This document shows positions 26,546-28,457 of a stretch of 34,781 nucleotides of DNA, in pieces (the first letter of the stretch is position 1; the number at the start of each line of letters is the position of its first letter). The notes beneath the pieces are model-generated. The model was not told the origin of the DNA, did no database searches, and saw only the letters and a program-made list of their open reading frames with translations. A program made the position numbers and the translations under genes. The DNA comes from a virus. Its lineage: Duplodnaviria > Heunggongvirae > Uroviricota > Caudoviricetes. Where the stretch lies: positions 1-34,781 of IMG/VR virus record IMGVR_UViG_2880361019_000004; one strand, given 5' to 3'.

Positions 26546-28209
26546 TACCAGCCCCCCCGATCAAATTCATGATATGCCTCATCGTCATCACGATAACCGC
26601 CCTCCATTGCCCGCGACCGCTCCGGTAGCGCCTGACAGGCTGATTCATCCAGGATGAAGCCCTCCATGTATGACGCCCGGTTTGCCATACAGAGCGCCAC
26701 GGCAAAATCACCATGGCGGCGGGCGTTCGCAGCCGTTGCGTTCTGGTCCTTCGTGCGCCCCTTGTCGATTTGCGGGATACCATTCACTACCTTCACATGG
26801 CGCAAATCATCAAGCGTGGTCTGATGGCGGGCGACGAGGATATTCTGATCTTCAAACTCGGCTTTCAGTTTTGGCATCCACTCGCCGTACCACTTCGGCG
26901 ACAACATCACGCAGTCGATGATGTCCGGGCCAAAGGCCAGCAGTGCGGCCTCTGCCAGATAGCCGCCGTTACCGGTGGCGTCGAACGCCGCACCGACCAG
27001 CGCCGGAACGCGGGTCAGGATGTACATCATCACCTGTTCCTGCTGGGCATACGGCAGGTTGCGCAGCTCCACGCGAAACACCTCGCGCTTTGCCAGGGAT
27101 TCGGTGATTTCCAGCAGCACAAAGCAGGACAGGTCACCGGTGCGGGCAAAGTCTTCCCCGAAGCTGAAGCGGGAACGGGGATTTAATTTCTCTAAAAGCG
27201 GTTTTAAATGTTCTTCACACCAGGTTAAAACTTCCGATTCACGCAGCCATGCGGCACGGCTGATGAAGTTGTCCGGGGCTTCAAACGTCAGAATCGGGAT
27301 GTCGCGGATCATCGCCATTTCAATAAGCGCGTGGGGGATATAGGCACCGCCGGATTTTTTCGGGATACAGCCGTATTCCTCGTCGGCATCCTCACGGGTC
27401 GGGGCGTTTTTGTAGAGATCATCACGCCATTTCTGCTCGCTTTCCGGTGACCATTCCTGATCGGTGACGTAACAGATACGACGGTACAGCCCGTCCGCAA
27501 TGGCATCATCCAGGGTTATGCGGTGGACGCTGTAATCCTTGCGCCCCTCGCGGGCTTCCTGAATGTACTGATTAAACAGATTATCGACGCCGTTATGCGT
27601 GGAGATAATACGCACGCGCGCGCCCCACATAGTGAGCGCCATTGCCGCCTTGAGAAGTTCATCCAGCGACTCGTGGAACGCGGCTTCATCAATCACCACA
27701 TCCCCCTGAAGGCCGCGCAGGTTTGACGGACGGGAAGACAATGCCTGAATTTTGAATCCACTGTTCGGAAAGCGGATCATGTAGGTCAAAATTTCTTCTT
27801 TTTTATCCCGATCCCAGAATGTCTGCTCATACACATCAGCATCTGCCAGCTGGTTAAAGGCACGGGAGAACAGCGCGCAGGCAGAAATATATTCCAGCGC
27901 CATCTCCTGTTTTGACCCCACATAAAACACATTGCGGCCACCACGCCGCTTCGGTTTTGCAGCGGTAATGACGTTACGCCCGGCTTCCGCCCAGGTAAGC
28001 CCGGTGCGGCGGGATTTTTCCGCGATGCAGACCTGACTTTCATCCGCAAACCAGCGGGCCTGATAATCCAGAAACACCGGCATATCACCGGGCAAATCAA
28101 GGCTGTCCGGCACATCCACGCCCAGCAGGGCTTTTTCACCGGACAGATCAATTTTGCGGGGAGGCGTCATTTGTATCAGTGAAGGAGACTTTTCTTTGGC
28201 TTTGTTCAT
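26545..28209 (-). CDS. Terminase large subunit (Mu gp28-like)
   Basis: 554-aa ORF upstream of portal with overlapping stop/start. Confidence 0.8.
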   Translation of the reverse strand: MNKAKEKSPSLIQMTPPRKIDLSGEKALLGVDVPDSLDLPGDMPVFLDYQARWFADESQVCIAEKSRRTGLTWAEAGRNVITAAKPKRRGGRNVFYVGSKQEMALEYISACALFSRAFNQLADADVYEQTFWDRDKKEEILTYMIRFPNSGFKIQALSSRPSNLRGLQGDVVIDEAAFHESLDELLKAAMALTMWGARVRIISTHNGVDNLFNQYIQEAREGRKDYSVHRITLDDAIADGLYRRICYVTDQEWSPESEQKWRDDLYKNAPTREDADEEYGCIPKKSGGAYIPHALIEMAMIRDIPILTFEAPDNFISRAAWLRESEVLTWCEEHLKPLLEKLNPRSRFSFGEDFARTGDLSCFVLLEITESLAKREVFRVELRNLPYAQQEQVMMYILTRVPALVGAAFDATGNGGYLAEAALLAFGPDIIDCVMLSPKWYGEWMPKLKAEFEDQNILVARHQTTLDDLRHVKVVNGIPQIDKGRTKDQNATAANARRHGDFAVALCMANRASYMEGFILDESACQALPERSRAMEGGYRDDDEAYHEFDRGGW

Positions 28210-28457
28210 CAGGCTTTACCTGTCAGAATGCTTTTGATTCGGGACTCAAGCTCTTCAGTCATCACGTCCACGCCGCTCAACTCATCAGTGGCAGCCTCTG
28301 CCAGCAGCGAATGCAGTTGTTCCAGGGATATTTCCCCGGCAATGCTGAGTTCAGTCAACTCACGACACGCTTTTATGGTTTCAGGAGGTAACTGTGTTGC
28401 AAGACTGAATGCCTTCAGATGAGCACTACTCATCAGTGAGCGGTTATCTGTTGCCAT
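28209..28457 (-). CDS. Small protein resembling the C-terminal segment of the gp27-like small terminase
   Basis: 82-aa ORF with GAGGTGA Shine-Dalgarno; C-terminus parallels the upstream gene's C-terminus; stop overlaps the large terminase ATG (TGATG). Confidence 0.55.
   Translation of the reverse strand: MATDNRSLMSSAHLKAFSLATQLPPETIKACRELTELSIAGEISLEQLHSLLAEAATDELSGVDVMTEELESRIKSILTGKA

What the first reader, a model, noticed from the sequence alone, without database searches (positions are those of the whole stretch)
28209..28457. Extra small gene echoing the gp27 C-terminus and translationally coupled to the large terminase
The 82-aa protein ends ...AATDELSGVDVMTEELESRIKSILTGKA, paralleling the upstream 193-aa protein's ...AVTDELRGVDGMSEQIEFRIRQMLLGKA, and the DNA is similar too. 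It has its own ribosome-binding site and its stop overlaps the large terminase ATG. It could be a partial duplication scar or a separate terminase-interacting module.
Basis: seen in the sequence. Interest (0 to 1): 0.45.

Follow-up and report, generated by a model that had tools for sequence, protein, structure and literature searches.

The report
Chimeric small gene between terminase genes
The 82-codon gene is real but is an ordinary recombination product: a small accessory gene fused in frame to a spare copy of the small-terminase tail, drifting in sequence, in a Mu-like prophage of E. coli.

Summary
ORF82 (28209-28457, minus strand) ends with 31 residues that are 58% identical to the end of gp27, the Mu-type small terminase (E 2e-10). 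It has its own GAGGTG ribosome-binding site, and its TGA overlaps the large-terminase ATG.

It is not a frameshifted gp27 and not a simple duplication:
- gp27 is complete.
- Residues 1-55 of ORF82 belong to a small, rare family ("X", 67-69 aa). X sits 10 nt after gp27 in a few Escherichia-like and Salmonella Mu-like prophages.
- Only residues 49-82 come from a gp27 tail.

Most relatives, including Mu, about 205 E. coli genomes and the common Salmonella type, have gp27 abutting TerL directly. The TerS/TerL junction is a recombination hot spot with at least six arrangements.

ORF82 occurs in 25 of 5,426 complete E. coli genomes, and one cluster member is seen on 1,000 or more contigs; it is always annotated as hypothetical (PHROG 30922). 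It evolves at omega about 0.6, against 0.01-0.09 for its neighbours.

Best reading: an in-frame recombination joint, probably translated because it carries the TerL stop-start junction. A role as a TerL-docking decoy or adaptor is not excluded but is not favoured. Interest is low to moderate.

The parts
28468..29049 (-). gp27, the Mu-type small terminase (TerS), 193 aa, complete
   Evidence: Pfam PF11985 at 3.1e-33 covering profile 1-173/173; phrog_426 'terminase small subunit'. Omega is 0.01 across 10 variants.
28468..28563 (-). gp27 C-terminal tail (residues 163-193 plus TAA), the resident copy of the repeated element. Its last 14 residues, QIEFRIRQMLLGKA, are an atypical allele.
   Evidence: Family tails are listed. 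The AF2 model shows a loop at 172-178 and a terminal helix at 179-189. Eleven of 13 variable sites are at third codon positions.
28458..28467 (-). 10-nt spacer GAGGTGAATC carrying the Shine-Dalgarno sequence of ORF82. The same spacer length follows gp27 in the X-type and Salmonella orf69-type loci, and the architecture resembles the Mu gp27-TerL spacer.
28209..28457 (-). ORF82, the chimeric 82-codon gene (phrog_30922)
28293..28457 (-). X-family domain of ORF82 (residues 1-55), predicted as three helices (5-21, 25-39, 45-60)
   Evidence: BLASTP to P0012 at 5e-20 and to Salmonella orf69 at 8e-8. AF2 pLDDT is 82-90 over residues 11-50.
28293..28313 (-). Crossover zone (residues 49-55, HSLLAEA) where X homology and gp27-tail homology overlap. 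It contains a short microhomology, (x)TG GCx xAx GCx.
   Evidence: The in-frame deletion variants P0003 and P0004 map here.
28209..28304 (-). Orphaned gp27-type tail of ORF82 (residues 52-82 plus TGA)
   Evidence: Omega is about 0.5.
28207..28221 (-). TerL translation initiation region inside the end of ORF82: weak SD-like AGGT (28218-28221), 8 nt, then the TGATG stop-start overlap (28207-28211)
   Evidence: The SD duplex of -3.8 kcal/mol is the weakest of six starts in this operon.
26545..28209 (-). Large terminase (TerL, gp28 homologue), 554 aa
   Evidence: phrog_2 at 5.8e-43; synteny with Mu gp28.
28141..28510 (-). Hypervariable junction cassette (last ~14 codons of gp27 to about codon 20 of TerL). 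It differs between otherwise 95-100% identical prophages.
   Evidence: Sliding identity against L005 (short type) and L006 (X type).

Best explanation
ORF82 is a lineage-specific chimeric gene made by illegitimate or unequal recombination at the boundary between the small (gp27) and large terminase genes of Escherichia/Shigella Mu-like prophages.

Origin. One parent carried gp27, a 10-nt spacer, a small accessory gene X (67-69 aa), an intergenic stretch and TerL. The other parent carried the usual arrangement, in which the gp27 stop overlaps the TerL start. A crossover in a few bases of microhomology joined X codon ~55 in frame to gp27 codon ~165. The recombinant therefore has a complete gp27, and X now reads through a second, orphaned gp27 tail into the TGATG junction with TerL.

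The echo. The similarity to gp27 is inheritance of that tail. It is not a duplication of the resident gene and not convergence.

How it works (inferred). ORF82 is translated from its own good Shine-Dalgarno sequence. Its last codons contain TerL's weak SD and the stop-start overlap, so terminating ribosomes are handed to TerL. That is a cis role, and it makes an in-frame joint the kind of joint that survives. The protein itself, including the tail, is under little constraint and is probably dispensable in trans.

Shown: the anatomy, the chimeric homology, the distribution and the substitution pattern. Inferred: the recombination pathway, translation, and coupling.
For: - Chimeric homology: residues 1-55 match X (P0012, E 5e-20) and Salmonella orf69 (E 8e-8). 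Residues 49-82 match the gp27 family tail (E 4e-9).
- Synteny: X and orf69 sit 10 nt after gp27, like ORF82, but have their own stop and an intergenic stretch before TerL.
- Usual arrangement: gp27 abuts TerL in Mu, Shewanella, Vibrio, the common Salmonella type and about 205 E. coli genomes.
- Mosaic map: the three E. coli-type arrangements are 95-100% identical in the gp27 body and in TerL beyond about codon 20. They differ only in the junction cassette.
- Not a diverged gp27 duplicate: the ORF82 5' part scores 17 against gp27, versus 17.4 +/- 2.2 for shuffles.
- Selection across 10 distinct DNA variants: ORF82 has 15 synonymous and 30 non-synonymous events, omega 0.63, with variable sites spread 13:15:19 over the codon positions. 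The neighbours are gp26 0.04, gp27 0.01 and TerL 0.09 (Fisher p 5e-6 to 8e-11). ORF82 does not differ from neutral (p 0.10).
- Frame kept: all 16 loci have 82 codons with no stop or indel. Two metagenomic variants carry in-frame deletions at the joint.
- Coupling anatomy: TGATG overlap, TerL SD -3.8 kcal/mol against -6.1 to -11.8 for the other five starts scored.
Against: - The putative parent with exactly this tail allele on gp27 was not found. Short-type tails are only about 80% identical to the ORF82 tail.
- X-type loci are very rare, so the direction of events rests on parsimony.
- Absence of stop codons is not significant by itself. The probability is about 0.2-0.3 under neutrality.
- The coupling argument is weakened by the Salmonella arrangements, where an uncoupled TerL has an even weaker SD at the called start.
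- Over the deeper ORF82-versus-X comparison dN/dS is 0.34, so the X domain is not purely neutral.
- The tail still keeps 9 of 11 invariant and 7 of 10 near-invariant gp27 positions.
- No expression or binding data exist.
Confidence: 0.6

Rival explanations
1. ORF82 is a functional terminase accessory protein. Its retained TerS tail docks on TerL as the gp27 tail does. It would either tether the X domain to the packaging motor or act as a decoy that tunes TerS-TerL assembly.
For: - ORF82 has a strong SD of its own and an ATG or GTG start in all variants.
- The ORF is intact at all 29 places in 25 complete genomes, and the protein cluster is widespread.
- The tail keeps the predicted helix-loop-terminal-helix layout of gp27 and 16 of 21 invariant or near-invariant family positions.
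- The X family always sits between TerS and TerL.
- The X domain is predicted to fold, with pLDDT 82-90, and shows dN/dS 0.34 against X.
- In lambda and P22 the last 20-40 residues of TerS are the TerL-binding part (PMC9026076).
Against: - Tail omega is about 0.5, against about 0.01 for gp27, with no third-position bias.
- Family-invariant or near-invariant positions are replaced: R172->S, G176->V, S178->T.
- Further changes segregate among ORF82 variants: G62S, L70P, S72F.
- In-frame deletions at the joint are tolerated.
- About 90% of sister prophages do without the gene.
- No family, structure or defence-library match gives any functional clue.
Confidence: 0.2
2. ORF82 is a passive scar with no role at all. 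It may not even be translated, and TerL initiates on its own.
For: The substitution pattern is near-neutral. Absence of stops is compatible with chance. Salmonella relatives express TerL without an upstream overlapping ORF and with a weak SD. A frameshifted variant, P0010, exists.
Against: The SD and start codon are conserved in all 10 distinct variants. There are no frameshifts in 16 loci and the only indels seen are in frame. The frameshift variant comes from one short read-assembly contig.
Confidence: 0.15
3. ORF82 is a tandem partial duplication of the resident gp27 3' end that diverged, or an artefact in which a single longer gp27 was split by a frameshift or misassembly.
For: The indel relative to short-type prophages is exactly 259 bp and the two tails lie in register.
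Against: - The 5' 166 nt show no similarity to gp27.
- The N-terminal part is homologous to X and orf69 instead.
- gp27 matches its Pfam model end to end and has the same length with and without ORF82.
- The same ORF is present in finished genomes from many laboratories.
Confidence: 0.03

Closest known systems
Bacteriophage Mu gp27 / Pfam PF11985 (Phage_Mu_Gp27, DUF3486), the Mu-type small terminase subunit
   Same: The last ~31 residues of ORF82 are homologous to the gp27 C-terminal tail (TDELxGxDxMxExLExRIxxxLxGKA). That tail is conserved from this phage to Mu itself.
   Different: ORF82 lacks the N-terminal HTH and the long helical core. It gives no Pfam hit to PF11985. Its tail is under relaxed constraint.
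PHROG phrog_30922 (unknown function)
   Same: ORF82 matches the profile end to end (positions 2-82 of 82, E 2.6e-51). This is the same gene, already catalogued.
   Different: The PHROG carries no annotation. Its chimeric make-up (X domain plus TerS tail) is not recorded there. gp27 hits it only through the tail (E 6.3e-8).
X family: 67-aa P0012 (metagenomic Mu-like prophage, L006) and 69-aa orf69 of Salmonella enterica (L034/L035, EIL6410477.1)
   Same: They share a homologous N-terminal ~55-residue domain, the same position 10 nt downstream of gp27, and an SD-bearing spacer.
   Different: X and orf69 end 8-10 residues after the domain with their own stop, and an intergenic stretch follows before TerL. 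ORF82 instead continues into a gp27 tail and overlaps TerL.
C-terminal TerL-binding domains of lambda TerS (gpNu1) and P22 TerS (gp3)
   Same: TerS has the same layout: N-terminal DNA binding, a central oligomerisation region and a short C-terminal TerL-binding tail (PMC9026076). By analogy the gp27 tail is the likely TerL-docking element.
   Different: This is analogy only, with no sequence relation. The binding role of the Mu gp27 tail has not been tested. A free-standing copy of such a tail on another protein is not part of those systems.
Rpp (redirecting packaging protein) of Gram-negative PICIs
   Same: It is a small accessory protein that resembles part of TerS and acts on the terminase (PMC9026076).
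   Different: Rpp mimics the TerS DNA-binding and dimerisation part and lacks the TerL-binding tail. ORF82 is the inverse (tail only) and is encoded by the phage itself. No homology was found.
Mosaic 'novel joints' and morons at module boundaries of temperate phages (Hendrix, Hatfull and colleagues; my own knowledge, not checked here)
   Same: A sharp transition from about 97% to about 70% or no identity lies between two essential genes. There are several alternative inserts at one site, and the joint that survived is in frame.
   Different: Here the joint created a fusion ORF that re-uses the 3' end of an essential gene and its translational coupling to the next gene.

Membership tests
Pfam PF11985 Phage_Mu_Gp27 (small terminase of Mu-like phages) | Whole-protein score above the gathering threshold (28 bits) | tested here: not met
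   ORF82 gives no PF11985 hit even at E <= 1. gp27 scores 116 bits.
Pfam PF11985 Phage_Mu_Gp27 (small terminase of Mu-like phages) | N-terminal helix-turn-helix and long helical core | tested here: not met
   ORF82 aligns only to gp27 columns 160-193. Its residues 1-55 are unrelated to gp27.
Pfam PF11985 Phage_Mu_Gp27 (small terminase of Mu-like phages) | Conserved C-terminal tail motif | tested here: met
   18/31 identical to gp27. 16 of 21 invariant or near-invariant tail positions are kept.
phrog_30922 | Full-length profile match | tested here: met
   E 2.6e-51, residues 2-82 on profile positions 2-82 of 82.
X family (informal: P0012, Salmonella orf69) | Homologous ~55-residue N-terminal domain | tested here: met
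   BLASTP 5e-20 (54% identity) and 8e-8 (36% identity).
X family (informal: P0012, Salmonella orf69) | Position directly after gp27 with a 10-nt SD-bearing spacer | tested here: met
X family (informal: P0012, Salmonella orf69) | Own short C-terminus and stop, separated from TerL | tested here: not met
   ORF82 continues into a gp27 tail and overlaps TerL.
Translationally coupled gene pair (termination-reinitiation) | Stop-start overlap and weak independent SD of the downstream gene | tested here: met
   TGATG overlap. TerL SD -3.8 kcal/mol, the weakest of six starts.
Translationally coupled gene pair (termination-reinitiation) | Downstream expression depends on upstream translation | not testable with these tools
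   This needs nonsense or reporter constructs. Comparative support is mixed.
TerL-binding module (TerS C-terminal domain, as in lambda gpNu1 or P22 gp3) | Physical binding to the large terminase | not testable with these tools
No interaction data exist.
TerL-binding module (TerS C-terminal domain, as in lambda gpNu1 or P22 gp3) | Purifying selection on the tail comparable to that in TerS | tested here: not met
   Tail omega is about 0.52, against 0.01 for gp27.

The most novel reading that the evidence does not exclude
ORF82 is a phage-encoded protein that uses a detached small-terminase tail as a docking peptide for the large terminase. It would either bring the X domain to the packaging motor or compete with gp27, and so tune packaging. 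It would be the mirror image of the PICI Rpp proteins. It would also show that the TerS tail plus the TerL N-terminus behave as an exchangeable specificity cassette in Mu-like phages.
Probability: 0.12. Interest if true: 0.6.

Novelty: new member of a known kind. Interest (0 to 1): 0.3.

Why it matters
The result mainly serves annotation and phage-evolution bookkeeping.

- It explains why a widespread 'hypothetical protein' (phrog_30922) of Escherichia/Shigella Mu-like prophages looks like the end of the small terminase.
- It shows that the TerS/TerL boundary of this phage group is a recombination and insertion hot spot with at least six arrangements.
- It gives a clean natural example of how an in-frame joint can create a new, translated ORF by borrowing the 3' end and translational coupling of an essential gene.

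If the minority reading were true (a free TerL-docking tail), it would give a handle on the untested TerS-TerL interface of Mu-type terminases.

Tried and rejected
- **Diverged tandem duplication of gp27.** Local DNA alignment of the ORF82 5' part against gp27 scored no better than shuffles. Rejected.
- **Frameshift or assembly artefact.** Rejected by the full-length gp27 and the identical ORF in many finished genomes.
- **Short type as a recent deletion between the two tails of the long type.** The short-type tail is only 79% identical to either tail while the flanks are 95-100% identical, so it is a separate allele.
- **N-terminal part as a relic of a TerL 5' end.** This was suggested by the Mu-like spacer. 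ORF82 residues 9-46 against TerL residues 1-38 give 32% identity, p 0.007 in one of eight tests. DNA identity of 46/114 is not the best register among all tested. X shows nothing. Inconclusive.
- **X tail or intergenic stretch of L006 as a decayed gp27 tail.** No similarity.
- **Wider relatives.** The HMMER search of residues 1-55 against 1.84 billion representatives found only ORF82 variants and P0012; the other hits were repeat proteins. Loci L021-L023 were chance matches in GC-rich phage tail genes. L012 is a deletion or misassembly chimera. Scans of genome and viral contigs with the X alignment found nothing new.
- **Functional libraries.** Pfam, NCBIfam, PADLOC, PDB sequences, Rfam, the promoter/terminator scan and Foldseek against viral structures gave nothing informative for ORF82.
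- **'Uncoupled TerL genes have stronger SDs'.** This held for Mu and L006 but failed for the Salmonella types.
- **Programmed frameshift fusing ORF82 to TerL.** A TAA lies in the TerL frame three codons before its ATG and there is no slippery site (read).
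Full report
**1. What is there.**
The window is the late region of a Mu-like prophage, read on the minus strand. The gene order is Mor (31102-31524), lysozyme, spanins, a TraR/DksA-type protein, DUF2730 (gp25), gp26 (29052-29342), gp27 (28468-29049), ORF82 (28209-28457), large terminase TerL (26545-28209), then portal.
- gp27 is a complete Mu-type small terminase: PF11985 at 3.1e-33 covering profile 1-173/173, and phrog_426.
- ORF82 starts 10 nt after the gp27 TAA, behind GAGGTG.
- ORF82 ends in TGATG, where its stop shares one base with the TerL ATG.

**2. The echo is real.**
- Protein: ORF82 residues 52-82 against gp27 residues 163-193 give 18/31 identities with no gaps, E 2e-10. 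Against a 48-sequence gp27 profile the match is ORF82 49-82 to columns 160-193, E 4e-9.
- DNA: 62/96 positions are identical. The same 96-mer slid over the whole window gives 24 +/- 4.4, and the next best match is 47.

**3. It is not a split or duplicated gp27.**
- gp27 is 193 aa whether or not ORF82 follows it.
- The 166 nt upstream of the tail have no similarity to gp27 (score 17 against 17.4 +/- 2.2 in shuffles).
- A HMMER search of residues 1-55 against 1.84 billion representative proteins found ORF82 variants and one other real relative, P0012 of 67 aa.
- P0012 lies 10 nt after gp27 in a metagenomic Mu-like prophage (L006). It has its own stop, and 119 nt of spacer precede a TerL with a different N-terminus.
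- A Salmonella prophage type (L034/L035) has a 69-aa homologue in the same place, followed by a fragment of an opposite-strand gene.
- Pairwise scores: ORF82 against P0012, 54% identity over residues 1-55, E 5e-20. ORF82 against orf69, 36% over 53 residues, E 8e-8. P0012 against orf69, E 5e-9.
- ORF82 is therefore an X-family domain (residues 1-55) joined to a gp27 tail (residues 49/52-82). The two homologies overlap in HSLLAEA, where gp27 (ATG GCG AAC GCG), X (GTT GCG CAC GCT) and ORF82 (CTG GCA GAG GCT) share a few bases.

**4. Comparative picture.**
- In Mu, gp27 is followed by a 7-nt SD-bearing spacer and TerL.
- In Shewanella MuM16-1, Vibrio 1.028.O and the common Salmonella type, the gp27 stop overlaps the TerL ATG.
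- In complete E. coli genomes, about 205 records have this short arrangement and lack exactly 259 bp. Twenty-five of 5,426 genomes (29 places) have ORF82. None has the X-type spacer.
- A further Salmonella type has a 166-aa opposite-strand gene between gp27 and TerL.
- The three E. coli-type arrangements are 95-100% identical in the gp27 body and in TerL from about codon 20 onward. They differ only in a cassette running from the last ~14 codons of gp27 to the first ~20 codons of TerL.
- The resident gp27 tail (…QIEFRIRQMLLGKA) is atypical for the family. The ORF82 tail (…EELESRIKSILTGKA) is closer to the consensus …LE[AS]RI[KR]G[VI]LLGKA.
- The short-type tail is 79% identical to each of the two tails. 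None of the sampled forms is therefore a recent derivative of another.
- The simplest history is an unequal, microhomology-mediated crossover between an X-type phage and a directly coupled phage. The exact coupled parent has not been sampled.

**5. How it evolves.**
Substitution events across ten distinct DNA variants (16 loci):

| Gene | Synonymous | Non-synonymous | Omega |
|---|---|---|---|
| gp26 | 28 | 3 | 0.04 |
| gp27 | 45 | 2 | 0.01 |
| TerL codons 1-300 | 51 | 15 | 0.09 |
| ORF82 | 15 | 30 | 0.63 |

- ORF82 variable sites fall 13:15:19 over the three codon positions. The contrast with each neighbour is strong (Fisher p 5e-6 to 8e-11), and ORF82 does not differ from neutral expectation (p 0.10).
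- The tail alone gives omega 0.52.
- Family-invariant or near-invariant gp27 positions are changed (R172->S, G176->V, S178->T), and more changes segregate among variants (G62S, L70P, S72F). Still, 16 of 21 such positions remain.
- Over the deeper ORF82-versus-X comparison dN/dS is 0.34. The X domain therefore behaves like a fast-evolving accessory gene rather than pure junk.
- The frame is open and exactly 82 codons in all 16 loci. The start is ATG or GTG and the SD is conserved.
- Two metagenomic variants have in-frame deletions at the joint, and one short contig has a frameshift.
- Absence of stops is not significant on its own (P about 0.2-0.3).

**6. Structure.**
- AF2 with a shallow alignment predicts ORF82 helices at 5-21, 25-39 and 45-60 (pLDDT 82-90 over residues 11-50). 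A low-confidence loop follows at 61-67, then a terminal helix at 68-79.
- The gp27 model has an HTH, long helices, a loop at 172-178 and a terminal helix at 179-189. The tail layout is therefore shared.
- Foldseek against viral structures found nothing (best E 0.77).
- In lambda and P22 the last 20-40 TerS residues bind TerL (PMC9026076). By analogy the gp27 tail is the likely docking element, and its near-frozen sequence in gp27 fits that reading.

**7. Mechanism.**
Most likely, ORF82 is translated and hands ribosomes to TerL through the TGATG overlap.
- The TerL SD-like AGGT gives -3.8 kcal/mol, the weakest of six starts here.
- That would explain why an in-frame joint is the form that persists while the amino-acid sequence drifts.
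- This is inference. Salmonella arrangements with an uncoupled TerL and an even weaker SD show that coupling is not indispensable in the group.
- A trans role for the tail, as a TerL decoy or adaptor, is possible but disfavoured by the relaxed constraint and by the roughly 90% of sister prophages that lack the gene.

**8. Status and novelty.**
- The exact protein is on 156 contigs. Its 90% cluster has 79 member sequences, and one member is seen on 1,000 or more contigs of E. coli, Shigella and E. albertii.
- It is always named 'hypothetical protein', and it is phrog_30922.
- Its chimeric nature appears unrecorded in those sources, but the phenomenon, a mosaic joint at a module boundary, is well known.
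- This particular copy sits in a defective prophage, with IS insertions and the early region missing.

Noticed in passing
window 22567-25020: An IS66-family element (tnpA 22648-23052, tnpB 23049-23396, tnpC 23445-24983, plus strand) is inserted in the portal gene at about codon 507 of 529, with an 8-bp target duplication. The portal ORF therefore reads into the IS (548 aa instead of 529).
   Followed up: yes
window 32675-34781: An IS1 transposase (32675-33178 and upstream ORFs) lies just beyond GemA, followed by a DegT/ArnB-like aminotransferase gene (33624-34781). The Mu-type early region (repressor, ner, transposases A and B) is absent, so this prophage copy is a defective remnant.
   Followed up: partly
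window 28468-28509 (last 14 codons of gp27): The resident gp27 ends in QIEFRIRQMLLGKA. This allele was not seen among 120 listed gp27 cluster representatives. It is shared only with ORF82-type and X-type loci. Its 3' end plus spacer resembles the Mu gp27-TerL junction (GGTAAGGCATGAGAGGGTTATG).
   Followed up: partly
window 28096-28209 and 28320-28433: There is weak similarity between ORF82 residues 9-46 and TerL residues 1-38: 12/38 identical (p 0.007 in one of eight comparisons) and 46/114 nt, concentrated at codon positions 1 and 2. It might mean the X family began as a TerL 5' fragment. Not significant after correction.
   Followed up: partly
L034/L035 2093-2704; L043/L044 2444-3067: Salmonella Mu-like prophages carry other inserts at the same gp27/TerL boundary. 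One is an X homologue (orf69) plus a 72-aa fragment of an opposite-strand gene. The other is the intact 166-aa opposite-strand gene of unknown function.
   Followed up: partly
L027 (QZMH01000043.1), gp27 codon 154: This ORF82-type prophage has a GAA->TAA nonsense mutation in gp27, so that copy is also decaying.
   Followed up: no
P0017 (Logan contig, 291 aa): This is a gp26-gp27 fusion protein (96 + 193 aa joined by two residues) in one assembly. It is presumably a point change at the gp26 stop or a sequencing error.
   Followed up: no
NZ_AP022815.1 (JE86-ST05, 3 places), NZ_AP022811.1 (JE86-ST02, 2 places), NZ_CP166879.1 (2-4 places): Some strains carry several copies of the ORF82-type prophage. 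Two related JE86 isolates differ in copy number, which hints at recent transposition of an active phage of this type.
   Followed up: no
window 1-738: A Mom-family (DNA modification) gene sits at the far end of the prophage. The ORF runs to the window edge.
   Followed up: no
LC727881.1 / LC727895.1 (L001): The closest records in the phage collection are short-type Mu-like phages that have transposed into Stx-converting prophages.
   Followed up: no
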